A stretch of DNA of 54,941 nucleotides, taken from IMG/VR virus record IMGVR_UViG_3300010403_000008, positions 1 to 54,941 of that record; one strand, given 5' to 3'. A program made the translations under genes and the position numbers. The notes under the pieces were generated by a model. That model did no database searches and was not told the DNA's origin. It was given only the letters and a program-made list of their open reading frames with translations. How positions within the stretch are numbered: the stretch's first letter is position 1; the number at the start of each line of letters is the position of its first letter. Positions 10,196 through 29,945 of the stretch are shown one piece after another. The DNA is from a virus (lineage: Duplodnaviria; Caudoviricetes).

Positions 10196-10936
10196 ATGGA
10201 TCACGAGGCCATAACAGCAGTTATCACCAGAGATGGACCATGGGGAACTGGTGTGAATCCAAACCCGTACGCCAAACAGCAGGCAGAATGGGAAAGGCGC
10301 ATTCAGTTCGCTAAAGATCGTGCCCACATCACTGATAAAATCACTTCGTTATTCGAGCCTCGTTACATCACTCCACCAGAAACCAGTGAGTTGATTGAAT
10401 CGCTGGTGACAGCCTCCGATTCAAGAAAGATATTGGAGGTTGGGACGTACACTGGATTTACCACATTGCACATTCTGCGAGCCTTGGTAGGCAAATCGGG
10501 GGCCAAGTTCATCAGCATAGACGCGAGACCAGCATTCGATGCCACATGGTGGGAGCCGTGGTATCCGACTATGGAATTCATAAATGGCTGGACGCCTGCC
10601 ATCCTGTCTGATCCCAGAATTCAAGCTCATGCCCCATACGATCTTGTGTTTGTGGACAGCGATCATTCTGTAGAGCATACGCAAAAGGAACTTGAAGCGC
10701 TGTGGCCACTCACCAAAGTAGGAACCATCTTCCTATTTCACGATGTGCCAGAATGGAAGTCCCCGCAGGATCGTGCTGCCCATCCTGTCCGCACGATGCT
10801 GTTGGAGAATGTGGCTCCTGGCAGGTTCTACGGTTTAATCGTGCCCACCTGTGAGCAGTTGGATTGTCTGGACGCTTGGGGACCGGGCTATCCCAAGGAA
10901 TGCAATCCTCACTTGGGGATATTCATACGTAGATGA
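10196..10936 (+). CDS. Class I SAM-dependent (O-)methyltransferase
   Basis: ILEVGTYTGFT, YDLVFVDSDHS and GTIFLFHD. Confidence 0.85.
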   Translation: MDHEAITAVITRDGPWGTGVNPNPYAKQQAEWERRIQFAKDRAHITDKITSLFEPRYITPPETSELIESLVTASDSRKILEVGTYTGFTTLHILRALVGKSGAKFISIDARPAFDATWWEPWYPTMEFINGWTPAILSDPRIQAHAPYDLVFVDSDHSVEHTQKELEALWPLTKVGTIFLFHDVPEWKSPQDRAAHPVRTMLLENVAPGRFYGLIVPTCEQLDCLDAWGPGYPKECNPHLGIFIRR

Positions 10937-14802: not shown

Positions 14803-16092
14803 ATGCCCGAATCCGCTACCGCCTCACCCCCACCCCCTGCCCCCGACTTCACCCCCCTGCCTGTCCAGCAAGACTCCAGCAGTGGTTCTGCCCCACCGAT
14901 TGTGCCGTCAGCATCCCCTCGTGAGATTGATGTTGGAAAAGCTTCAGGCGGGGCCAAGCAGGACAAGACGGGTTCGGGGATGGATGATTCGATGAGTGAT
15001 TTGGACAGGCTGTTTGCGGAGACGGAGGCAAAGCCGGAAAAGCCCGCTGGTAACGCGAAGGATGAGAAGAAGCAGTCTGACCAGTCTGGGGACGAAAAGC
15101 CTGCTGGTGAGGCAGCAGACGCCAAGGAAGAGGGGTCTGGTGAGAAGTCTGGGGAGGACAAGACTGGGAACGGAAAGGCTGTCAGTGCCCCTGAATTGAG
15201 GAAGGCGTACGAGGCCCTGAAGAAAGAGGCTGCTGAACTGAGGGAGAAAGTGAAGTCCCGTGGTCCATCCGAGGATCAGGTGAAGGAATTGCAGACGTTT
15301 AAGGAACAGTACGAATCTGAGTACAAGCGTAGGCAGGAATTGGAAAAGGAATTGGCACAGAGCGCGTACGAACGATCCCCAGAATTCAATGAGAAGCACG
15401 CTGGCCCGTTCCGTAATGCGTACCAGAACGCTCGTAATCGCATTGCACAGTTCAAGGTGACTGACAGTGAAGGGGCAACCAGACAGGCGAGTCCTGATGA
15501 TTTTGATGCGATCATGCAGATTGGGGATGATATGCAGGCAGCAACGGCTGCACGGGAACTGTTCGGGGATACGGTGGGACCGATTGTGATGATGCAGCGG
15601 GAGAAGGTGCAGGAATTGCATGGGTCAATGCAGAAAGCGATTGCAGATGCAGAAACCAACTTCACCAAACACCAGCAGGAACAGAAGGTGATGTCAGAGC
15701 GCAAGCAGGCGCATTTGAACAAGCTGTGGACGACGCTAAATACGGGTGCAGCCGAGAAGTACCCCCAACTGTTCAAGCCTGTGGATGGGGACGAAAAGGG
15801 CAATGAATTGCTTCAGAGAGGATTTGAGCTTGTAGATAAAGTGTTCATGGATGGGAGCCAAATGGACCCTGAAGAGACGATTAAACTGCACAGTCAAGTG
15901 CGCAACAGGGCAGCAGCGTTTGGGAGACTGGTGTACCAGAACCGTACGATGAGTGAGAAGATTGCTGCACTGGAGAAGGAGTTGAACGCCTTTAAGGATA
16001 GTGCCCCGAAGAATGGGGATGGGAGAGCGGGGAAGAAGGGGGAGGGGGAATTGTTTGGGGAGGATGCATTGGAGAAGTATGTTGATCGGTAG
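14803..16092 (+). CDS. Capsid scaffolding protein
   Basis: Pro-rich and acidic N-terminus with long coiled coils; lies between portal and MCP. Confidence 0.7.
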   Translation: MPESATASPPPPAPDFTPLPVQQDSSSGSAPPIVPSASPREIDVGKASGGAKQDKTGSGMDDSMSDLDRLFAETEAKPEKPAGNAKDEKKQSDQSGDEKPAGEAADAKEEGSGEKSGEDKTGNGKAVSAPELRKAYEALKKEAAELREKVKSRGPSEDQVKELQTFKEQYESEYKRRQELEKELAQSAYERSPEFNEKHAGPFRNAYQNARNRIAQFKVTDSEGATRQASPDDFDAIMQIGDDMQAATAARELFGDTVGPIVMMQREKVQELHGSMQKAIADAETNFTKHQQEQKVMSERKQAHLNKLWTTLNTGAAEKYPQLFKPVDGDEKGNELLQRGFELVDKVFMDGSQMDPEETIKLHSQVRNRAAAFGRLVYQNRTMSEKIAALEKELNAFKDSAPKNGDGRAGKKGEGELFGEDALEKYVDR

Positions 16093-16096
16093 GTTG

Positions 16097-16501
16097 TTAC
16101 GATTTGCTGTCATCGTTATGGCGATTCATTACGGCAAATGAGTCTTCCATATCGTTCGTGATTGAATCAAGTTCGCTGAACCATTGAATTAGGTCACGAT
16201 TCCATACCCATTGCTCCCCCTTAAGGTCTCCAGTCACGAGTCTGGCTCGTCCGTTAATGTCTCCGCTGACTTCATTTACAATCCAACAACAGAAGCGTCT
16301 TGATGGAAGACTTCTGCCCTTAAGCACACTGGGATTGAAATAGAAATCACCAGAATTGCTCTTTTTAATAATGGCTGCTATTTCTTCAGGTGTTTTGTTC
16401 CAAAGCTTCTTCTCATCTTCAAAGAAGTTGGATAGCATTTTCAATTTCTTTTGTGCATGTATAAGGCTTCGTTTTACGTCTTTTGATTTATGGGTTTTCA
16501 T
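16097..16501 (-). CDS. Hypothetical protein, last gene of the inserted cassette
   Basis: 134 aa AT-rich ORF overlapping the upstream gene. Confidence 0.55.
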   Translation of the reverse strand: MKTHKSKDVKRSLIHAQKKLKMLSNFFEDEKKLWNKTPEEIAAIIKKSNSGDFYFNPSVLKGRSLPSRRFCCWIVNEVSGDINGRARLVTGDLKGEQWVWNRDLIQWFSELDSITNDMEDSFAVMNRHNDDSKS

Positions 16502-17252
16502 TGGTTGTAAAATTTCGTGCGATCAGATCAAACCGTTCCCTTCCCTCCCGATTGCCAATTAGCTGCCATCCCCTCCATGTCATTCGATGTCCATTGACTA
16601 TACTAACAAGACCATAAGTAGCGGCACATGAAATTGAGCTTTTGTATTTCTTTCCGGGTCTCCAGTTCAGGGTTTCTGGCGGAAACAGGTCAGGATTCAT
16701 GTGAACGAATCTGGTGATGTTTTTCACATAATGAATAACCCCACTGGGGTCTCTTAAAAAGCATTCTCTGGCCCTGATGTGATTTGGACTATAGCGTTTA
16801 GATTGTGGTGTGTTTCTAATCTTTCCAAGATGCAGTTCTCTTGTGCGAATCCTATTCTTTTCAGACTGAACAGCGGCCAGCCATTTCGATTCATCCCTGA
16901 ACAAGATTGGGCTGTGTCCTTTTTCCCGTTGTTGTATCCCGTGATACAGATAGGCACATTCTCTTGAGCAAGAGATATTACTTCTTGTCTTCCATGTGGT
17001 TTGGAATGTTTTACCGCATTGTACGCATACCTTTTCCTTGTCGTTTATTCGGATGGAGTTTCCGGCACACTGGGTTGAGCAATACTTTCTCCACGAATGA
17101 TTTGGTTTCTCAAGCCATTCCTTTCCGCATTTCTTACAGGTTAATGTGATACGTTTTGGTCTCATAATGAGAACCTGCATAATGTGGGATGTATGCGGGC
17201 ACGCATTTGGGGTTTGAGGAGATGGAGGGTCATGTGCTGGTTCCGTTTTCAA
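16488..17252 (-). CDS. CxxC zinc-finger repeat protein, homing-endonuclease-like DNA-binding architecture
   Basis: CKKCGKE...YCSTQC and CVQCGKTF...SCSREC repeats, with C-terminal LRDPSG..HYVKNI..F and WRGWQL. True start may be the ATG at 17165. Confidence 0.55.
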   Translation of the reverse strand: MKTEPAHDPPSPQTPNACPHTSHIMQVLIMRPKRITLTCKKCGKEWLEKPNHSWRKYCSTQCAGNSIRINDKEKVCVQCGKTFQTTWKTRSNISCSRECAYLYHGIQQREKGHSPILFRDESKWLAAVQSEKNRIRTRELHLGKIRNTPQSKRYSPNHIRARECFLRDPSGVIHYVKNITRFVHMNPDLFPPETLNWRPGKKYKSSISCAATYGLVSIVNGHRMTWRGWQLIGNREGRERFDLIARNFTTNENP

Positions 17253-17754
17253 TCTGTCTCAGTCCAGACTTGATCGACTCTTCTGCCGTCAGCCTGCGTT
17301 TAGCTGCCTCCGTAGCTGCTTCTAACGTATTGAGTGATCGTTTAGATGTTGCCATCGCAATCACTCCATGACTGCTGAACTGAGCGTGGAATTTGATTCG
17401 TTCTTCGTTCGTCATTTTATCCGGGTCTGCATCCTTGACCAACATTCTTCGGATGGTTCGTCTTGAGAGCCTGTGAATTCGTCTGGTTGCATCTGCTCCA
17501 ACCATGTGAAATTCACCAGCCTTCAGCCTGCGAATTCCTTGACCCCGCACATGGGCGAAATACTTCCCCGTCTCACGCTGAACGATTAGGATTGCACGAG
17601 ACAGAATCCATGCGTGTTTCTTGAACAATTCACGTCCCGGTGTCAGTGCCTGCAATTCAGCCCTTGTGATCAATTCGTGATGCTCAATCTTGTTTAGGTA
17701 TCGAGCGATGGTCACGGAATCAATGTTGGCCTGATGTGGGATTGCTGACTGCAT
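17230..17754 (-). CDS. Accessory protein of the Cas7-like/array cassette, possibly winged-HTH
   Basis: LITRAEL...ILSRAILIVQRETGKYFAHVRGQGIRRL; starts 6 nt after array 4. Confidence 0.65.
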   Translation of the reverse strand: MQSAIPHQANIDSVTIARYLNKIEHHELITRAELQALTPGRELFKKHAWILSRAILIVQRETGKYFAHVRGQGIRRLKAGEFHMVGADATRRIHRLSRRTIRRMLVKDADPDKMTNEERIKFHAQFSSHGVIAMATSKRSLNTLEAATEAAKRRLTAEESIKSGLRQIENGTST

Positions 17755-17760
17755 AAAATA

Positions 17761-17920
17761 GAGTGGTGTGTGGTGATTTGACTTGGGGTTATGTGCAGTG
17801 CGGTAGCTTGACGTGATCTGATTTGCGGTGCTGTGGGTTACTGTGTATTGGATTGCCGTGGCGTGAAGTGGCGTGCGTTTGATTGAGTTAGTGTGGCTTG
17901 CAGTGTTTTGGTGTGACGTG
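17761..17920 (-). repeat. Pentamer guide-like array 4: 32 units of CAM-NN (plus strand NN-KTG)
   Basis: Exact 5-nt period: gaGTG gtGTG tgGTG atTTG acTTG ggGTT atGTG caGTG...; non-coding. Confidence 0.9.
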
Positions 17921-17941
17921 GAGAGAAATTGGCCCCTAAAG

Positions 17942-18071
17942 ATGGTGTGTTGTGTCGTGCGTTGTTGTGACTTGATTTAGGGTGCAGTGGAATGCTGTGG
18001 GTTGCAGTGTAATGTTGTGACTTATCGTGCTGTGGTTTTGAGTGGAGTGGCGTGACTTGGGATGTAGTGTG
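17942..18071 (-). repeat. Pentamer guide-like array 3: 26 units
   Basis: ATGgt GTGtt GTGtc GTGcg TTGtt GTGac TTGat TTAgg GTGca GTGga...; exact 5-nt period. Confidence 0.9.
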
Positions 18072-18098
18072 GAGAAATTAAACAGCACGCAATGGGGG

Positions 18099-18228
18099 AT
18101 GGTGTGGAGTGTTGTGAGTTGGCGTGTCTTGTGTTGGCACGAATTGCGGTGTCGTGTTTTGATTTAGCGTGCAGTGTTTTGAAGTGTTGTGTGTTGCGGT
18201 GCCTTGTTGTGTCCTGATGTGTTTTGGT
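18099..18228 (-). repeat. Pentamer guide-like array 2: 26 units
   Basis: ATGgt GTGga GTGtt GTGag TTGgc GTGtc...; begins 2 nt after the Cas7-like stop codon. Confidence 0.9.
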
Positions 18229-18230
18229 GA

Positions 18231-18791
18231 TTAAATTCGTTCTAACTTGGACACTTCAAATCGACCATTAGTTCCGCCCTTCTCAGCACGGAACTGGCCC
18301 AACCCAATGAACATCCCCGCATGGTCCAAATGCTCCCGTAAAATCTTCTCGTCAATCGCATCATCCAGAACGGCGATTGTAACGGTGGTCTTCCATGAAG
18401 TCAGGGTTGGGATGCAGCGAGCAACCCGCTTTCCTGAGCCTCGTATCCCGTCTGAGTTGGCGTTGATCCAGATTGGCTTGGCATCAGCACGAGTCATCCC
18501 AAGGTCCGCATCGTCCATCACGAGTAGGCCGCTCTCGAACAGCTTCGTATAGGTTCGTTTACCCTTACCCGGAACCTGTCTGCCAAGATGCTTGGCTGCT
18601 GCACAGATGCAGAACTTCAGAGCCATAGCTGGAATGATGCACCTACCAGCCTCGTTTACGCGAAGCTTTTCGAGGTAGCAGCGAACTTCAAAATCTTCGT
18701 GGGTTTCGCGGTCTGCGCGTTTGGACGTGAATGGAGCGCCTCCCCCTAACGGGGTGACGGATTGTAAGGTTACTCGGAATTTGTTTAACAT
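18231..18791 (-). CDS. Stand-alone Cas7/RAMP-like RNA-binding protein (Vipr-like)
   Basis: RAMP hallmarks: N-terminal FRVTLQSVTPL strand, IIPAMALK (IP.S.LKG-like), and a C-terminal Gly-rich loop AGMFIGLGQFRAEKGGTNGRFEV. Confidence 0.8.
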   Translation of the reverse strand: MLNKFRVTLQSVTPLGGGAPFTSKRADRETHEDFEVRCYLEKLRVNEAGRCIIPAMALKFCICAAAKHLGRQVPGKGKRTYTKLFESGLLVMDDADLGMTRADAKPIWINANSDGIRGSGKRVARCIPTLTSWKTTVTIAVLDDAIDEKILREHLDHAGMFIGLGQFRAEKGGTNGRFEVSKLERI

Positions 18792-18910
18792 GATGGAGTG
18801 ATGTGGTGTGTTTTGGTGTGCCGTGTCTTGATGTGTCGTGTGGTGTCTTGAATTGCAGTGAAGTGAGGTAGGTTGGTTTGCTGTGCAATGGTTTGTGTTG
18901 TCGTGTCGTT
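18791..18910 (-). repeat. Pentamer guide-like array 1: 24 units, decodes to an MCP-gene target
   Basis: Minus strand AACga CACga CAAca CAAac CATtg CACag CAAac CAAcc TACct CACtt CACtg CAAtt CAAga CACca CACga CACat...; abuts the Cas7-like start codon. Confidence 0.92.
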
Positions 18911-18914
18911 TCGG

Positions 18915-19064
18915 GTCCGGTTAGACCGGACAAAAAGTCCGCTCAGGTGAAAGACCAGATCGAATGGGGCTGGTCCGGTTTCCCGGAACTGAGCGGACCG
19001 AAAGTCCAAAGTGTCAGTCTTGCGCCATTCGACCGGCTTTCACACCAGTCACGGACGAGCGGAC
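18915..19064 (-). ncRNA. Structured, potentially pseudoknotted leader RNA of the cassette
   Basis: Perfect complementary pairs: 18915-21/18925-31, 18937-46/18989-98, 18953-58/18970-75, 18960-67/19025-32 and 18947-53/19037-43. Confidence 0.55.
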
Positions 19065-19308: not shown

Positions 19309-20640
19309 ATGGCTAGTACACTTTCCTGTGGGGCATTTACTCAGTACCTCGTCGATCAGCTACCTGTTTATGATAAGTTGATTTTGGAGGACATTCGTCC
19401 GATGGACGGTTGGATCGGACATGTTAAGACGGGTACGTTCGAGGCGTACTCGGGCACAGAGCATACTCTGGACCGTTTCAATCACGTGTACCCGGATACA
19501 ACCAAGGCTTGGTCCCGAACTCAGGCCAGTAATTGCATCGGAACTCCTTGTGACAAAACGGAATACTGCATTGGGTGGGGTGCGACAAGAATCACTTATT
19601 TTTTGGAAGAGCAAAGTTGGGCGACGCCATTACTTTGTTTCGATCAGGAAATGCACATCACAAAAGCAAGAGAAAATTTCCGATATATTATCGGAGGAAT
19701 TCTCAAGCCCGCCACTTCGACCATCATGTCGAACTTCCTGCGTCGTCGTGCCCTCACGATTGGCACGGGCAAGAAGTGGGTGGCCAATGCCACAATGTCT
19801 GATTTCGTGCCCACCTGGGTCACTGTAGGCGGTTCTGAACTGTATCTGGACGTGACTGTGGAACCCACTTCCCGGCTCACTCCACAAATGCTTCAGCGTC
19901 GTGTGTCCCCACTCATGCTGATGGGCTATTTCGGGAAGAACCCGTTCGGGGACCGCAAATCCATTCCTTTGATCGAACTGGTCACTGGCATGGAAACTCT
20001 GTGGGACTTGGACAAGCAGGTCTGCGACAGCAACATCTCTGGCGCATGGCGGTTCACAGAATGGACGGCAGCCAACGAGTACTGGCGGTACGGCTTCAAC
20101 GGGCAGTTGGGCAACTACGCAACCCGTGCAGACCCAATGGAGATGCGGTTCAACCGTGTTGGTCCCGTGGCTGGTGGCAAGATTCGTTTCCAGTTCATCC
20201 AGCCCTACGTGAACGTCGCATCCAGTGGGGCTGGTGGTGCCCCCGGTCTCAAGTCGATTGAGAATGAAGACTGGCAGAATGCTCGTTACTCCATCAGCTT
20301 CATCTGGCACAAGATGGCGATGGAAGCACTGGTCGCAGACGCAACCCCGGTCAATCCCGAAATGCCATTCTCGTCCCGTAACTTCGGTGGACGCTGGCAG
20401 TTCGTGAAGGACAACCTGGGTGCGTGTGAGGACGGGACAGTCATTGAGAACAAGCGCGGGAACAAGGGTCAGTTCATCAGCGACTTCAAGCTGTCGATCA
20501 GACCCATGTACACCGAATTCGCGGAAGCGATCTTCCACATGCGCAATCGGGCCTGCATCACGATCTGCCCTCCGTGTGGCACTGATCCTGGGTATCCGAC
20601 TCAGAGCTACAACAGTTGCAATCCTGACTGCACACCGTAA
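19309..20640 (+). CDS. Major capsid protein
   Basis: 443 aa, follows the scaffold (apart from the insert), strongly biased codon usage, and followed by a terminator hairpin. Confidence 0.75.
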   Translation: MASTLSCGAFTQYLVDQLPVYDKLILEDIRPMDGWIGHVKTGTFEAYSGTEHTLDRFNHVYPDTTKAWSRTQASNCIGTPCDKTEYCIGWGATRITYFLEEQSWATPLLCFDQEMHITKARENFRYIIGGILKPATSTIMSNFLRRRALTIGTGKKWVANATMSDFVPTWVTVGGSELYLDVTVEPTSRLTPQMLQRRVSPLMLMGYFGKNPFGDRKSIPLIELVTGMETLWDLDKQVCDSNISGAWRFTEWTAANEYWRYGFNGQLGNYATRADPMEMRFNRVGPVAGGKIRFQFIQPYVNVASSGAGGAPGLKSIENEDWQNARYSISFIWHKMAMEALVADATPVNPEMPFSSRNFGGRWQFVKDNLGACEDGTVIENKRGNKGQFISDFKLSIRPMYTEFAEAIFHMRNRACITICPPCGTDPGYPTQSYNSCNPDCTP

Positions 20641-21127: not shown

Positions 21128-21682
21128 ATGGCAATCGCCTGCGATGCTGCCTCGTTGATGCTCAATGCCGCCTGTATTACTGAGTGCATTGCGCATGGGC
21201 AGGCGAACGCAATCAAGACCCAGCTTCTGGCTGACATTGCGGGTGGTTCTCAGGACCCGGGCACCCTCCTAGACGCTGCCCGCTGTTTCCTTTGCCTGAC
21301 CCGTACACAACTACTGGCCATTCGCGTTTACCTGCTGGCCATTCTATCCGGTACGTCTCCCACATCTCAGGCGATACAGGATCAATCGTGTTGCCTGCAA
21401 AATTGTCTGACCATTGGTCAGTTGAGTCTAATCCAGATTTACATTCTGGCAGTCAAGGCTGGTGAGTCTCCTAATGGCAATCTCCTCGATCCTGCCCGTT
21501 GCTTCCTTTCCTGCCTGATGGGGATTCAGAATGATGCGATCCAGACCTACCTTCTGGCTGTGATTGCGGGTGGTTCGACTGACCAGCAAGCCCTTCTATC
21601 ACTCGCTTCCTGTATTCTGGAATGCCTGTCTGGAGAGCAGTTGCTGGCTGCTGAGACGGTCCTAATGTGTCTTTGGGTTTAA
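21128..21682 (+). CDS. Cys-rich internally repeated protein, putative virion component (paralog 1)
   Basis: About five repeats of LL.AA.C..CL...QL.AI..YLLA. Confidence 0.65.
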   Translation: MAIACDAASLMLNAACITECIAHGQANAIKTQLLADIAGGSQDPGTLLDAARCFLCLTRTQLLAIRVYLLAILSGTSPTSQAIQDQSCCLQNCLTIGQLSLIQIYILAVKAGESPNGNLLDPARCFLSCLMGIQNDAIQTYLLAVIAGGSTDQQALLSLASCILECLSGEQLLAAETVLMCLWV

Positions 21683-21685
21683 GAT

Positions 21686-22327
21686 ATGCCATTTGAATGC
21701 GATGCAGCCTCACTGGTAGAAGCAGGGTGTTGCGTTTCCTGTTTGGAAGGGGGTCAGCTACAGGCAATCAAGACCCATCTGCTGGCCCAAATCGCAGGAG
21801 TCCCAACAAACATCGCTTCCCTGCTTGAAGCAGCCAGTTGTTTCTTCTGTCTGACCAGTCAACAATTGGCAGCAATCAGGGTGTGGCTTCTGGCTGACTT
21901 GGGTGGGATTGAACAGGACCCACAGGCGATCATGGATGAAACATGCTGCCTGTTGCAGTGCTTGTCCAAATTTCAAGCACTGTCTGCCCAAGTCGCAATC
22001 CTGGCTGAAATCAATGGGGACGATCCAAACAACGTTGCTGGGATGTTCAATGCTTGTTGTGAACTCTCTTGTCTGTCTGGAATTCAAAACGATGCGGTCC
22101 AAACTTATTTGGTGGCAGTTGCTGCGGGTGGTAGCACAGATGCAATCGAACTATTCGGGAATGCATCATGCGTTTATACATGTCTTTCACCGGGCCAGAT
22201 GGTGTATGCTGAAACAGCGATGATGTGTGCATGGTCAAACAATCTGGGTGGAACGTTCTTCAGGATCACTGACGATTTGGAACGAAGAATTACTGACGAA
22301 CTGGATAACAGGATTTGGAGAAATTGA
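21686..22327 (+). CDS. Cys-rich internally repeated protein (paralog 2) with a C-terminal RITD..ERRITD motif
   Basis: Co-linear with 21128-21682; the C-terminus resembles short fibre-attachment motifs. Confidence 0.65.
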   Translation: MPFECDAASLVEAGCCVSCLEGGQLQAIKTHLLAQIAGVPTNIASLLEAASCFFCLTSQQLAAIRVWLLADLGGIEQDPQAIMDETCCLLQCLSKFQALSAQVAILAEINGDDPNNVAGMFNACCELSCLSGIQNDAVQTYLVAVAAGGSTDAIELFGNASCVYTCLSPGQMVYAETAMMCAWSNNLGGTFFRITDDLERRITDELDNRIWRN

Positions 22328-26993: not shown

Positions 26994-29945
26994 TTACGCT
27001 GAGTAGTTCAGTGCCCCCGCATGATGCAGATCAAGCGCCTTCTTCCTGAGCGTGTCCTTCCAGTCGTCATTCTGGGGCTTCTGTGGGGCAGCAACGGAGC
27101 GTAGCTGGAAGCCCTTTTGTCTGGCCCCTTCGATCAGTGTGGCGAGCCAGTCCATCAAGTCTGGGGACCTTCCCATTCGTTCCTTGGTTTTTATCTTAGG
27201 CTCAATTTCGATCCTGTTTCCAGCAACCATTGTCCACTCCCTGGTCATCCCATCCTCCAAAACGTCTTCAGTCAGGCCCCTAAATTGGCCAGCCTCCATA
27301 GCGTACCGGGTCATAAACCACAGTTCGGTCACAAATTTACTGAAATGTTCGTCACATCTCTTTGGTCGCATCTTGCGTTCAGACTCATCATAAATCTGAA
27401 GCTCTGTAGAGACGGGCCTTGATGTGGGCTTTCCCCCAAACTCCAGAGGATTTACGAATGGACTCCAGATACGGGAGAATGCGGTCCCAAGGGACCCCCT
27501 CCCGGTGGCGTCGTAGAATACGTGATTGGCTGGAATCCCCGCTTCAATGCACGCCTCCCTGACAAACATTACGATCTGATCTTCCGGCTCTGTATCTGTG
27601 CCAGCTTTAACTGGAATAATAACATGCGGCATCATGTGGATAATCAGGTCGCCATTGGCATCCAATCCAAACGAACCCCATCCTCCAACACAGCGATCTC
27701 CTCCAACTTCTCCGTATGCTGCATCCACTGCGTAGATTTTAGTCTGCCTATCATCTTTCCAAGCGACTTCCTCAAACGCCTTGAACTTGATTGCGATATT
27801 TCGTGTGAATATCCTGCGTCCGTTAAGCCCTGCCTTCCTGACACCCTTACATTGACTCCAGAACTGGAGACTGTCCCGACCATAGAAAGCAGCAACGGAT
27901 TCAATGCTTTTGGAATTTATCATCCAAGGGTACTTCGTTGGCTGATCTTTGGGATAATCCTCATTTGGAGAATCTGTGCCAACAAGATTAACCGTTCTGC
28001 CGTTCTCAAAACGATTATCCCAAACTGTTGTCTTGGTGATTTCCCCTTCGGTTCCCCAACCATTTTTAGGTTCAGAGATGCGGTCCAACGGATCACCGAT
28101 ACCAAGTGGATTCCCAACGAATACCCCTTTGAAGTCGTGTCCTTCGCCAGTGCCGGAGTTAAGGTTGGCTAATGCATCCAAGTAGCCAGCCTTCATTAAC
28201 TGCGATTCGTCTCCTAGTAGTCTCCTTCTTTTTTGTTTAATCCCCACGTACTTCCCTAATCCCTGCCATGAACCGCCAGAGGACATGCACGGGATGCAGT
28301 TGTGAACTACGACTCCATTTACGCTGTACGATGGGTGATTGTCAACCGAGAGATTGTAGACGCGATGTCCTGAATCACTAAATCCAACTCTTCCCTCACT
28401 CTTGTTTTCGAGAACCTCAACACTTGCCACCCAAGCGTGTTTAGTTCTTCCGTTCTCTTCGCGTCCGCCTTTCGCTTGAATGCTATCCGATGAATCCCAC
28501 CGTCGATTTCGACTGCCAGTTTCAGCCACGGGAACGCTATGTCTATTTCGTAAAAATGCCGAACGTTTTTTCTGGTTCTCCTGCCCGTCATTACTCTGAA
28601 ATGAAGTTCTGCTCCGATGAATGCTGAGGCGATTGCCTGTTCCTCTTTGGTGATTTTCAGATGATCTTCCCCGCTCTTGCGATCCCTGTTTTTCCATCTG
28701 CAAGATTCTCCGCAAAATCTCGTCCGAAACCTCGTCTTGGAAAGAATTATCGAGATGAATGGTTCCGCACATTCCTCGCATTTCCTTTGTTCTGGAAGCA
28801 TCTGGCAGAATTTCGTGCAGAACAGTTGGTTCGGGTGAGCCTGAAATGCTTTTCCGCAATGAGCACAGTTCTGCGTCGTTCGCTTTGGTCCAAGCCCATT
28901 TGCTGCTGCCCAACGACTCGCGCATGTTGTGCTGCAAAATCTGCCCCAATGTGGTGGGCGACTTGGTTTTGGTTTTACTGGTCTGTAAATTGCCTGACAG
29001 AATTCGCATGGTCTTTCTGGAAGCCTGTCTCGACAAAGAGCAGAGCAATGTTTCCTGTTTGGGTATCCTGGTCCGAGTGGTTGGTTGCAAGAGGCGCAGA
29101 GTTTCATGTATTGAGAACACCCTATCGTAAGTCTTTAACTTACTCGCGTCAACCCATCCTCTGCGTGTAAAGAACGGATGCTCAGGTGTGCAATCTATGG
29201 TTCTCCCATCCGATAACGTTACCCTTACTAACTCTCTGGCAATACTGCATTGTATTTCTGTTACTTTACCGATACCGAAAGCATTTAACACTTCTTCTCC
29301 AGGACTGATCGTTTCGATTGATTTTTTTCCTGACGGAGTATCGACTTGAGTTCCCGCCACAAAACAAATAATCCCCTTTCTTAAATCCCTAGTCTCCCCC
29401 TCAATAAGATTGTCGGTACAAATCGCGTGCTTACTATCGAGCAGATGCCCCGGAAGGGATGGGTAGCGATCTTTCGCCTGCTTGAACATATTCTTCATGT
29501 CACCCCAAACACGAAGCTCCAACCCACGAACGTCTGTGGACGAAACAAGAATGAGTGTGTTGTGGGGGAATGCGAAGTAGTCAGTCAATGCGTAACGCGT
29601 TAATGCACAATGAGTTTTTCCGCTATCTCGCGGGCCTAGCACAGCTAGGATTGTGCTTTTAAGCGTCTCCTCTAAAATCAAATCGCTCCATCTATGATGG
29701 GCGTCTTTAGGCCATAAAAGTTGCATCAGACGCTTGTAGTGGAAAAAATCCCCCATCCCCAATGTTTGACCTTGTTTCCCCTTCCAGCTTCCGCCCTTAC
29801 GTATGCAGTATAGCTCGATTTCAATTGCATCCATAACTGGCGGAAACGAAAGCCCGTACAGGTTTTTCTTCGCTTTCGGATTCCGCTTTGGGCCGCTGAA
29901 ACGTGGCACTGTGGGGTCGTTCGGATTCGCTGGATTTTCGCTCAT
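26994..29945 (-). CDS. terL: Terminase large subunit containing an intein
   Basis: Walker A GPRDSGKT, Walker B LLGDESQ, coupling motif VGNP, and nuclease motifs YAVDAAYG, YDATGRG and GRSPDLMD. Confidence 0.85.
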   Translation of the reverse strand: MSENPANPNDPTVPRFSGPKRNPKAKKNLYGLSFPPVMDAIEIELYCIRKGGSWKGKQGQTLGMGDFFHYKRLMQLLWPKDAHHRWSDLILEETLKSTILAVLGPRDSGKTHCALTRYALTDYFAFPHNTLILVSSTDVRGLELRVWGDMKNMFKQAKDRYPSLPGHLLDSKHAICTDNLIEGETRDLRKGIICFVAGTQVDTPSGKKSIETISPGEEVLNAFGIGKVTEIQCSIARELVRVTLSDGRTIDCTPEHPFFTRRGWVDASKLKTYDRVFSIHETLRLLQPTTRTRIPKQETLLCSLSRQASRKTMRILSGNLQTSKTKTKSPTTLGQILQHNMRESLGSSKWAWTKANDAELCSLRKSISGSPEPTVLHEILPDASRTKEMRGMCGTIHLDNSFQDEVSDEILRRILQMEKQGSQERGRSSENHQRGTGNRLSIHRSRTSFQSNDGQENQKKRSAFLRNRHSVPVAETGSRNRRWDSSDSIQAKGGREENGRTKHAWVASVEVLENKSEGRVGFSDSGHRVYNLSVDNHPSYSVNGVVVHNCIPCMSSGGSWQGLGKYVGIKQKRRRLLGDESQLMKAGYLDALANLNSGTGEGHDFKGVFVGNPLGIGDPLDRISEPKNGWGTEGEITKTTVWDNRFENGRTVNLVGTDSPNEDYPKDQPTKYPWMINSKSIESVAAFYGRDSLQFWSQCKGVRKAGLNGRRIFTRNIAIKFKAFEEVAWKDDRQTKIYAVDAAYGEVGGDRCVGGWGSFGLDANGDLIIHMMPHVIIPVKAGTDTEPEDQIVMFVREACIEAGIPANHVFYDATGRGSLGTAFSRIWSPFVNPLEFGGKPTSRPVSTELQIYDESERKMRPKRCDEHFSKFVTELWFMTRYAMEAGQFRGLTEDVLEDGMTREWTMVAGNRIEIEPKIKTKERMGRSPDLMDWLATLIEGARQKGFQLRSVAAPQKPQNDDWKDTLRKKALDLHHAGALNYSA
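28299..29366 (-). mobile_element. Intein (356 aa) in the TerL ATPase domain
   Basis: Begins CFVAGTQV, block B CTPEHPFFT, and ends VYNLSVDNHPSYSVNGVVVHN followed by a +1 Cys. Confidence 0.92.
28319..29107 (-). CDS. Endonuclease nested in an alternate frame of the intein: CxxC repeats plus DUF559/Vsr-like domain
   Basis: Four CxxC...(F/H)C...C repeats, then YEIDIAFPWLKLAVEIDGGIH...DAKRTEELNTLGWQVLRF. Confidence 0.85.
   Translation of the reverse strand: MKLCASCNQPLGPGYPNRKHCSALCRDRLPERPCEFCQAIYRPVKPKPSRPPHWGRFCSTTCASRWAAANGLGPKRTTQNCAHCGKAFQAHPNQLFCTKFCQMLPEQRKCEECAEPFISIILSKTRFRTRFCGESCRWKNRDRKSGEDHLKITKEEQAIASAFIGAELHFRVMTGRRTRKNVRHFYEIDIAFPWLKLAVEIDGGIHRIAFKRKADAKRTEELNTLGWQVLRFSKTRVREELDLVIQDIASTISRLTITHRTA

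What the first reader, a model, noticed from the sequence alone, without database searches (positions are those of the whole stretch)
18791..18910. Array 1 decodes to a major capsid gene target at codon positions 1-2
The minus-strand dinucleotides are GA GA CA AC TG AG AC CC CT TT TG TT GA CA GA AT GA GG AC AA. The MCP codons at 19606-19665 (EEQSWATPLLCFDQEMHITK) begin GA GA CA AG TG GC AC CC TT CT TG TT GA CA GA AT CA AT AC AA. That is 12 of the first 16 and 14 of 20 identical, with the skipped base falling on the wobble position. My rough binomial estimate (p=1/16 per unit, about 1e5 positions) gives a chance expectation of about 1e-5 or lower. This is internal evidence for the read-2-skip-1 code. 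Inference: the true target is the MCP gene of a related competing phage (approximately EEQTW[S/R]TPL[L/F]CFDQEM), and skipping wobble bases makes the guide resistant to synonymous escape.
Basis: partly seen in the sequence, partly recalled or inferred. Interest (0 to 1): 0.96.

Follow-up and report, generated by a model that had tools for sequence, protein, structure and literature searches.

The report
Phage VIPR guide RNA targeting capsid gene

Summary
On the minus strand, 18910..18791 is 24 five-base units (22 begin with CA). Laid at a spacing of 3, its variable dinucleotides match codon positions 1-2 of ORF 19309-20640 at 19606 in 14 of 20 units. Every other position, strand and spacing gives at most 8, and 0 of 1000 shuffles reach 14. 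A sister phage's array 1 (L003) hits the same gene block, 13 of 13 in three other phages' alleles but 10 of 13 in its own. The adjacent 186-aa ORF folds as a Cas7-like RAMP and is homologous to the Vipr protein of coliphage SUSP1. The next gene is vap1-like. This is therefore a VIPR system (three bioRxiv preprints, 2026: GGY/NN vrRNAs, "1 nt skip rule", inter-phage repression). Three features were not found in the text I could read: a G-free CA(C/A/T)/NN scaffold, a capsid-gene target, and an 80% match to the phage's own allele. Arrays 2-4 have no target in the sequences I could scan. Expression and binding are untested.

The parts
18791..18910 (-). vrRNA array 1: 24 five-base units of CA(C/A/T)+NN. 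Units 1-20 (18910..18811) are the variable guide part. The last units (18810..18791) carry a 3' end shared by all seven arrays of this lineage. The array runs into the ATG of the vipr gene.
   Evidence: for parsing and composition; for the period-3 match.
18231..18791 (-). vipr gene, encoding a 186-aa minimal RAMP (Cas7-like) protein.
   Evidence: phrog_4652, E 4e-11. AF2 model pLDDT 95.2. Foldseek top hits are type VII Cas7, Csm3 and Cmr4, E down to 2.3e-8. hhalign to SUSP1 Vipr gives Prob 96.7%, E 4.6e-10.
18097..18226 (-). vrRNA array 2: 26 units, 24 beginning with CA. It starts directly after the vipr stop codon.
   Evidence: No period-3 target in the window or in G001-G005.
17940..18069 (-). 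vrRNA array 3: 26 units, 23 beginning with CA.
   Evidence: No target found.
17761..17920 (-). vrRNA array 4: 32 units, 27 beginning with CA. It ends 6 bases before the ATG of the next gene.
   Evidence: No target found.
17230..17754 (-). vap1-like accessory gene (174 aa).
   Evidence: Local jackhmmer from this protein recovers the first downstream ORF of 50 of 77 related loci and SUSP1 vap1, E 1e-16 in a set of 79. Pairwise BLASTP to SUSP1 vap1 finds nothing.
19591..19665 (+). The block of the phage's own capsid-like gene (codons 95-119) that matches array 1 of this phage (from 19606) and array 1 of the sister phage (from 19591) at codon positions 1-2.
   Evidence: Residues 100-119 rank 3rd of 424 twenty-residue windows for conservation.
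19309..20640 (+). 443-aa ORF, probably the major capsid protein (HK97/N4-gp56 type).
   Evidence: No Pfam, PHROG, NCBIfam, PDB-sequence or INPHARED hit. The Atlas model of homologue P0054 has capsid-family structural neighbours with TM 0.55-0.61 by query and 0.73-0.79 by row. The feature search gives capsid families as leads only.

Best explanation
Positions 18791-18910 (minus strand) encode vrRNA1 of a VIPR (Viral Interference Programmable Repeat) system. The system consists of the 186-aa Vipr protein, four arrays of CA(C/A/T)+NN units and a vap1-like gene. By analogy with the solved SUSP1 system, one Vipr protomer binds each unit, hides the constant triplet and presents the two variable bases. 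The filament then pairs with double-stranded DNA in which every third base is skipped. Here the variable bases equal the coding strand, so pairing would be with the template strand. The site is codons about 95-119 of the capsid-like gene, close to the most conserved block of that protein family. The skipped base is the wobble base, so synonymous changes do not help a target escape. The most likely role is to repress the capsid gene of closely related, co-infecting phages. The phage's own allele would be partly spared by mismatches. Shown here: the array structure, the non-chance period-3 match, the better or perfect matches in other phages' alleles, the RAMP fold and the homology to SUSP1 Vipr and vap1. 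Inferred: transcription of the arrays, filament formation, DNA binding, repression, and that rivals rather than self are the target.
For: Array and match: (14/20, next best 8, 0 of 1000 shuffles reach 14). Independent support from the sister phage: array 1 of L003 differs in length and content yet hits the same block. It matches 13/13 in L083, L084 and L117, 11/13 in this window and 10/13 in its own allele L085. Zero of 1000 shuffles exceed 8. Specificity of period 3: among seeded hits of 212 arrays against 1.2 Mb, 31 at period 3 score 9 or more, against 1 at period 6 and 0 at periods 2, 4 and 7. Thirty of the 31 are these two arrays on alleles of this gene. Protein: AF2 pLDDT 95.2; Foldseek gives Cas7, Csm3 and Cmr4; hhalign to SUSP1 Vipr gives 96.7%; vap1 link. 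Same layout as SUSP1, with arrays on the gene strand, one upstream and three downstream of vipr. Family-wide: a dominant period-5 triplet could be called near vipr in 76 of 81 loci. Rivals: L083 and L084 carry other genes at the syntenic site instead of the cassette. Two complete relatives, G004 and G005, have no Vipr. Mechanism: preprints 10.64898/2026.04.26.720920 (Results, Discussion, four Methods sections) and 10.64898/2026.04.26.720927 (abstract, sections 5-6).
Against: No allele fits this window's array 1 above 16/20 units (34/40 bases, 85%). Units 17-18 fit none of the 41 DNA alleles or 150 protein representatives, so the guide may be partly decayed or its target unsampled. The phage's own allele reaches 32/40 = 80%, which is the cut-off the preprint uses for a natural target and at which it reports no self hits. 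Self-action is therefore not excluded. The constant triplet is CA(C/A/T), not GGY, and position 3 is A in 37 of 107 units, whereas the solved pocket excludes purines. No structured 3' tail is predicted. Arrays 2-4 and the sister's arrays 2-3 have no target in the window or G001-G005. Across the 212 arrays, period 3 shows no general excess on their own loci. L083 and L084 are 33-35% complete fragments, so they may carry a VIPR elsewhere. There are no expression data.
Confidence: 0.72

Rival explanations
1. Self-regulation. vrRNA1 acts mainly on the phage's own capsid gene 700 bp away, for example to delay or tune late gene expression. The matches in other phages then simply reflect conservation of the block.
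For: The phage's own allele matches at 32/40 bases (80%), and the sister phage's own at 22/26 (85%). In both phages the array that matches is the one next to the capsid gene. No allele perfect for this window's array 1 was found. The other 210 arrays show no nearby targets.
Against: The sister array fits three foreign alleles 13/13 but its own only 10/13. This window's array fits 10 of 40 foreign alleles better than its own. The own-allele mismatches include Leu and Ser codon-family switches, as avoidance would predict. The published VIPR guides had no self hits at 80% or above.
Confidence: 0.15
2. Relic guide. Array 1 once matched an ancestral or foreign capsid allele and is now drifting without function. 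The match is history, not current targeting.
For: There are six mismatches to every close allele class. Units 17-18 never fit. Degenerate units such as TAC and AAC occur inside the arrays.
Against: The scaffold is intact: 97 of 107 units have C at position 1 and 106 of 107 have A at position 2. The vipr and vap genes are open and conserved. The sister phage keeps a perfect 13-unit guide.
Confidence: 0.1
3. Protein-binding leader without guide function. The arrays would be TRAP-like triplet repeats or unstructured translation leaders in which the two spacer bases are free. The capsid match would then be chance.
For: The arrays lie in the 5' leaders of vipr and vap, and array 1 is unstructured (fold z -0.40). 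Most arrays of the family have no detectable target in the data held.
Against: The chance expectation is 1.2e-7, and 0 of 1000 shuffles reach the observed score. A second, different array matches 13/13 on the same block. The homologous SUSP1 system is experimentally a guide system.
Confidence: 0.02

Closest known systems
VIPR systems, type II as in Escherichia phage SUSP1 (KT454805.2) and the Pseudomonas fulva prophage clade; bioRxiv 10.64898/2026.04.26.720920, 10.64898/2026.04.26.720927, 10.64898/2026.10.15.759431
   Same: A small single-domain RAMP (Vipr) with homology shown here. A vap1-like second gene. Arrays of five-base units with 3 constant and 2 hypervariable bases on the gene strand, one upstream and three downstream of vipr. 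The target is read with one skipped base that falls on the wobble position of a coding sequence. The targets lie in competing phage genomes.
   Different: The constant triplet is CA(C/A/T) with almost no G, not GGY. It also differs from the alternatives named in the text (NNNGG, YNNNG, NNNNG). The arrays have 23-32 units, against 9-16. Arrays 2-4 lie between vipr and vap, not after both genes. No structured tail or pseudoknot is predicted, only 2-4 conserved terminal units. The target is a capsid-like gene of sibling phages, which I did not find named as a vrRNA target in the main texts ('capsid' occurs 0 times in the first preprint). The match to the phage's own allele is 80%. By the hhalign alignment, SUSP1's G-contacting D177, W178 and R138 correspond to Q166, F167 and I127 here (inference). 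I could not see the figures or supplements (fig. S17, data S3, data S4), and they may already cover such variants.
Class 1 CRISPR-Cas backbone subunits (Cas7 / Csm3 / Cmr4 / type VII Cas7)
   Same: RRM core with a glycine-rich loop. Best structural matches are 8z4j_J, 9g9e_D, 6xn3_F and 6s6b_I, with probability 1.00 and TM 0.5-0.6. In both, a filament forms along a guide RNA with periodic displaced bases, as shown for CRISPR and, in the preprints, for Vipr.
   Different: There are no CRISPR repeats, no spacers and no other cas genes. The period is 5 on the guide and 3 on the target, instead of 6 and 6. Sequence identity is 13-19%. The system is encoded by a phage.
TRAP and similar ring proteins that bind triplet repeats separated by 2-3 spacer bases (recalled, not from a call)
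   Same: Repeated triplets separated by two variable bases in an RNA leader.
   Different: In those systems the spacer bases carry no information. Here they spell codon positions 1-2 of a gene, and the protein has a RAMP fold.

Membership tests
VIPR system | Vipr protein: a small RAMP (single RRM, G-loop, thumb) related to the described Vipr proteins | tested here: met
   AF2 pLDDT 95.2. Foldseek gives Cas7, Csm3 and Cmr4 with E down to 2.3e-8. The family profile against SUSP1 Vipr gives hhalign Prob 96.7%, E 4.6e-10 over 126 columns, including the C-terminal G-loop.
VIPR system | vrRNA: tandem pentanucleotide units with a conserved triplet alternating with a hypervariable NN | tested here: met
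   107 units in four arrays. Position 1 is C in 97, position 2 is A in 106, position 3 is C 60 / A 37 / T 8 / G 2, and positions 4-5 are near uniform. The sister phage has different NN content and unit numbers in a conserved setting.
VIPR system | The conserved triplet is GGY, or one of the alternatives named in the preprint's text (NNNGG, YNNNG, NNNNG) | tested here: not met
   The triplet is CA(C/A/T). In the preprint's register this unit reads H-NN-CA and has no G. Relatives in IMG/VR use CGC, GGC, CTC, CAC, GAC and GTC. The preprint allows 'a related consensus' (fig. S17, which I could not see).
VIPR system | 1 nt skip rule: NN dinucleotides match a target with one skipped base, mostly the wobble base of a coding sequence, at 80% NN match or more | tested here: met
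   Only period 3 gives outliers. The match is in frame with ORF 19309. The sister array reaches 26/26 bases in L083, L084 and L117. This window's array reaches 34/40 (85%) in L094-L096.
VIPR system | Accessory vap gene next to vipr | tested here: met
   jackhmmer links the 174-aa ORF to the downstream ORFs of 50 of 77 loci and to SUSP1 vap1 at E 1e-16 in a set of 79 sequences. Pairwise BLASTP is negative.
VIPR system | Invariable, structured 3' tail after the repeat tract | tested here: inconclusive
   All seven arrays of this lineage end in a shared pair of units followed by a T-rich stretch. No stable fold is predicted for array 1 (z -0.40) and there is no Rfam match.
VIPR system | No self-target at 80% NN match or more | tested here: inconclusive
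   The phage's own allele matches at 32/40 = 80% over 20 units, or 35/48 = 73% over all 24 units. That sits exactly on the published cut-off.
VIPR system | vrRNAs are transcribed, processed and bound by Vipr, and the complex binds DNA and represses | not testable with these tools
   No RNA run is listed for this sequence. The evidence is by analogy only.
CRISPR-Cas (class 1) | Repeat-spacer array and a set of cas genes | tested here: not met
   The only repeats are the period-5 arrays. The neighbouring genes are vap1-like and an HNH gene, and no other RAMP is present.

The most novel reading that the evidence does not exclude
Two linked readings are not excluded. (1) The constant triplet is an evolvable address. 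This Vipr lineage reads a G-free CA(C/A/T) scaffold, while relatives read CGC, GGC, CTC, GAC or GTC. Vipr-scaffold pairs could therefore be mutually orthogonal, which would also shield a phage from rivals' decoy vrRNAs. (2) Self is told from rival by synonymous recoding. A wobble-skipping guide can see synonymous change only where codon families switch (Leu CTN/TTR, Ser AGY/TCN). The phages' own capsid alleles differ from their own guides at just such codons. That would be immunity by codon-family switching in an otherwise invariant protein block.
Probability: 0.3. Interest if true: 0.7.

Novelty: new variant of a known kind. Interest (0 to 1): 0.45.

Why it matters
The finding shows that the gapped VIPR code can be recovered from raw sequence alone. 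It also extends the code beyond the published examples in four ways.

- The scaffold triplet has no guanine, although the solved structure explains recognition through two guanines.
- The guides are long, at 23-32 units.
- The natural target is the most conserved block of a capsid gene of sibling phages.
- The guide sits on the published threshold for matching its own genome.

If scaffold triplets are protein-specific, they would offer orthogonal programmable DNA binders. The own-versus-rival allele pattern also offers a natural test of how many mismatches VIPR tolerates. The principle itself is already in print, so the value is as a variant and a test case, not as a discovery of kind.

Tried and rejected
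**Chance.** Rejected.

**Other gap sizes.** Periods 2, 4, 5, 6 and 7 give nothing above background.

**Arrays as coding sequence or codon-plus-spacer reading.** I considered this on paper. NN plus the next C would give Asp where the gene has Glu, so I dropped it.

**Cis RNA pairing of a plus-strand transcript of the array with the capsid mRNA.** Dropped. In all related loci and in SUSP1 the arrays are on the gene strand, and the published target is DNA.

**Targets of arrays 2-4 and of the sister's arrays 2-3.** None was found in the window, in the loci, or in the whole contigs G001-G005. I made no collection-wide search.

**General period-3 targeting of their own neighbourhood by the 212 arrays of 80 related loci.** No excess over control periods.

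**Enrichment of codon-family switches in the target block.** Window against L083: 2 of 4 conserved Leu/Ser/Arg codons switch family in the block, against 10 of 77 in the whole gene. Position 1-2 differences are 3 in 25 codons in the block, against 17 in 443 overall. The numbers are too small, so this is suggestive only.

**Capsid identity by sequence.** Pfam, PHROGs, NCBIfam, PDB sequences, INPHARED tblastn and hhalign to the SUSP1 capsid protein were all negative.

**Host.** Four MAG contigs from four phyla carry homologues of the capsid-like gene, so no host call is possible.

**Signals and expression.**
- The promoter and terminator scan was uninformative.
- No RNA holder is listed for the stretch, and read laying was not used.

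**Literature.**
- 'Cas7-like' + phage + 'tandem repeats' found 0 papers.
- The VIPR preprints were found.
- One search added nothing further.
- Supplementary files and figures were not seen.

Full report
**What is there.** The window is a complete virus record of 54,941 bp with direct terminal repeats. On the minus strand, 18910..18791 parses in a single phase into 24 five-base units, and 22 of them begin with CA. A scan of both strands finds only four such arrays, all on the minus strand:

- Array 1 ends in the ATG of a 186-aa ORF (18791..18231).
- Arrays 2-4 (18226..18097, 18069..17940, 17920..17761) fill the gap to the next ORF (17754..17230).

Over 107 units, position 1 is C in 97 and position 2 is A in 106. 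Position 3 is C 60 / A 37 / T 8 / G 2, and positions 4-5 are close to uniform.

**The observation.** I laid the first 20 variable dinucleotides of array 1 at a spacing of 3 on the + strand. They match at 19606 in 14 of 20 units (32 of 40 bases), and in 12 of the first 16 units. The position is in frame with the ATG at 19309, so the skipped base is the wobble base.

- Among all 109,982 positions on both strands, the next best count is 8.
- Spacings of 2, 4, 5 and 6 give at most 8, apart from the array's own position at spacing 5.
- In 1000 order-shuffles the highest maximum is 11, and none reaches 14.
- The binomial expectation for the window is 1.2e-7.

Arrays 2-4 show no such outlier: their maxima are 9-11 of 27-32 units, no higher than the best counts at the control spacings.

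**A second, independent array.**

- One close relative exists in IMG/VR (L002/L003; the 186-aa protein is 92% identical). It has three arrays whose length and NN content differ from the window's, although the flanking sequence is conserved.
- Its array 1 hits the same block of the same gene, starting five codons earlier (19591 against 19606). It matches 11 of 13 units in the window and 10 of 13 in its own allele (L085). It matches 13 of 13 (26 of 26 bases) in the alleles of L083, L084 and L117. None of 1000 shuffles exceeds 8.
- I ran a seed-and-extend search of all 212 distinct arrays from 80 related loci plus the window against 1.2 Mb of fetched DNA. At spacing 3, 31 hits score 9 or more, against 1 at spacing 6 and 0 at spacings 2, 4 and 7. 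Thirty of the 31 are these two arrays on alleles of this gene.
- The window's array 1 fits its own allele at 14/20. It fits seven other alleles at 15/20 and three (L094-L096) at 16/20, out of 40 other alleles scored.
- No allele does better. At amino-acid level, none of 150 representatives of the protein family does better either, and units 17-18 fit none.

**The proteins.**

- The 186-aa ORF has no Pfam or NCBIfam hit and one PHROG of unknown function.
- An AlphaFold2 model built on 32 homologues is confident (pLDDT 95.2, pTM 0.87).
- Its best PDB neighbours are all Cas7-family backbone subunits: type VII Cas7, Csm3 and Cmr4, with E down to 2.3e-8, TM 0.5-0.6 and 13-19% identity.
- The family is large. 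There are 50 hits in the protein collection, and 339 of 362 candidate stretches in IMG/VR encode a relative.
- Period-5 arrays on the gene strand flank the gene in the related loci, and a dominant triplet could be called in 76 of 81.
- The constant triplet differs by lineage. Among the 212 distinct arrays, CGC has 111, GGC 46, CAC 16, CTC 12, GAC 8 and GTC 5.
- On a tree of the 81 proteins the dominant triplet changes 20 times, against 36-42 in the ten label shuffles I printed. Relatives share labels, so this shows clustering and nothing more.

**Comparison with what is known.** A literature search found three 2026 bioRxiv preprints from one laboratory describing VIPR systems.

- The first preprint is 10.64898/2026.04.26.720920. 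I read its abstract, Results, Discussion and Methods sections 18, 20, 26 and 27.
  - It describes a minimal RAMP (Vipr), an accessory gene (vap) and vrRNAs made of 9-16 GGY/NN pentanucleotide repeats with a conserved 3' tail.
  - The NN bases recognise double-stranded DNA with one skipped base, mostly the codon wobble base, on either strand and without a PAM.
  - Natural targets lie in competing phages and satellites.
  - Natural targets were called at 80% NN match or more, and no self hit passed that cut-off.
- The second preprint is 10.64898/2026.04.26.720927. I read its abstract and sections 5-6. It shows one protomer per repeat in a helical filament. The two guanines are read by G-loop and thumb residues, and the pyrimidine sits in a pocket that excludes purines.
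- The third preprint is 10.64898/2026.10.15.759431. I read its abstract and section 17 and searched it for terms. It shows a phage using VIPR against a satellite.

I then tested membership directly.

- The record of phage SUSP1 carries GGY/NN arrays on the gene strand, one upstream and three downstream of a 195-aa and 146-aa gene pair.
- The profile of the window's family aligns to the 195-aa SUSP1 protein with hhalign probability 96.7% (E 4.6e-10, 126 columns including the C-terminal glycine-rich loop).
- The 174-aa ORF shows nothing by BLASTP against SUSP1 vap1. An iterative profile search over the first downstream ORFs of 77 loci recovers 50 of them plus SUSP1 vap1, at E 1e-16 in a set of 79 sequences.
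- A cultured Pseudomonas phage, LESphi2, carries a 29%-identical homologue with GGC-type arrays.

**Where it differs from the published systems.**

- The scaffold is CA(C/A/T), without G. That is neither GGY nor any alternative named in the preprint's text, and position 3 is often a purine.
- By the hhalign alignment, the SUSP1 residues that contact the guanines (D177, W178, R138) correspond to Q166, F167 and I127 here, while R179 is kept as R168. This is an inference from an alignment, not from a structure.
- The arrays are about twice as long as the published ones, and arrays 2-4 lie between vipr and vap.
- No structured tail is predicted. The seven arrays of this lineage share only their last few units and a T-rich stretch, and Rfam finds nothing.
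- I did not find a capsid gene named as a vrRNA target in the main texts.
- The phage's own allele sits exactly on the 80% threshold.
- I could not see the figures or supplements, and they may cover some of these points.

**The target gene.** The 443-aa ORF has no hit in Pfam, PHROGs, NCBIfam, PDB sequences or the INPHARED phages, either alone or as a profile.

- A profile search of 1.84 billion representatives finds 301 relatives. Ten distant ones also lack PHROG hits.
- My structure job was not accepted.
- The ESM Atlas holds a model of homologue P0054, which is 51% identical and is modelled at pTM 0.62. Its structural neighbours include clusters carrying Phage_capsid_4 or Phage_capsid_3 and named N4-gp56 family major capsid protein. 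TM is 0.55-0.61 by query and 0.73-0.79 by row, over about 300 aligned residues.
- The capsid label is therefore supported, but only indirectly.
- The targeted block (residues 100-119) ranks 3rd of 424 twenty-residue windows for conservation in a 24-sequence alignment.

**Who is the target.**

- L083 and L084 have capsid alleles 98% and 96% identical in protein to the window's. At the syntenic site they carry other small genes, including an HNH and an XRE-type gene, in place of the 2.8-kb cassette.
- Two complete, more distant relatives have no Vipr.
- Where the phages' own alleles differ from their own guides, the differences are largely Leu (CTN/TTR) and Ser (AGY/TCN) family switches plus one Phe/Tyr change. 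These are the only synonymous changes such a guide can see.
- The enrichment of such switches in the block is not significant with these numbers.
- I therefore favour rival targeting (0.72). The alternatives I keep open are self-regulation (0.15), a decaying guide (0.10) and a leader without guide function (0.02).

**Verdict.** The system is a VIPR system, already described in preprints. This locus is a variant with a G-free scaffold, long arrays and a capsid-gene target that nearly matches its own genome.

Noticed in passing
L003-L082 (IMG/VR loci around homologues of the 186-aa protein): The constant triplet of the period-5 arrays differs by lineage: CGC 111, GGC 46, CAC 16, CTC 12, GAC 8 and GTC 5 of 212 distinct arrays. 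It clusters on the protein tree, with 20 changes against 36-42 in the printed shuffles. CTC, CAC, GAC and GTC are not among the repeat forms named in the preprint's text.
   Followed up: partly
window 16092-18929 versus L083 351-2118 and L084 945-2339: The VIPR cassette, together with an HNH gene and a 134-aa ORF, sits in a variable island between a Glu/Lys-rich 433-aa gene and the capsid-like gene. In L083 and L084 the island holds other small genes, including an HNH and an XRE-type helix-turn-helix ORF.
   Followed up: partly
window 18811-18820 (units 17-18 of array 1): These two units fit none of the 41 DNA alleles or the 150 protein representatives, where the residues are almost always His-Ile/Val. 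This is unexplained. The effective guide may end at unit 16.
   Followed up: partly
window 18915-18932, minus strand: A 7-bp hairpin lies immediately 5' of array 1. It could be a processing or start signal for vrRNA1. The sister phage has different sequence there.
   Followed up: no
L008 4030-4547, L009 7188-7705, L066: Some relatives carry many consecutive arrays: seven CGC-type arrays in L008 and L009, and fourteen array calls in L066.
   Followed up: no
L136 (Pseudomonas phage vB_Pae_LESphi2, OQ594955.1) 980-1290: A cultured temperate phage carries GGC-type arrays upstream of a 29%-identical Vipr-like gene annotated as hypothetical, close to its CI repressor gene.
   Followed up: partly
window 26994-29945, minus strand: A 983-aa ORF has Hint/intein-type domains (Intein_splicing E 5.9e-10, PT-HINT E 1.1e-7).
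   Followed up: no
window 21128-21682 and 21686-22327: Two adjacent ORFs (184 and 213 aa) just downstream of the capsid-like gene look like paralogues, with a repeated Cys-containing motif (translations).
   Followed up: no
whole window: Almost no ORF has a PHROG or Pfam match. Of 20 large-ORF scans (10 ORFs in each library), only a methyltransferase (10196-10936), DUF6492 and the Hint protein gave named hits. This is a very poorly charted phage group.
   Followed up: no
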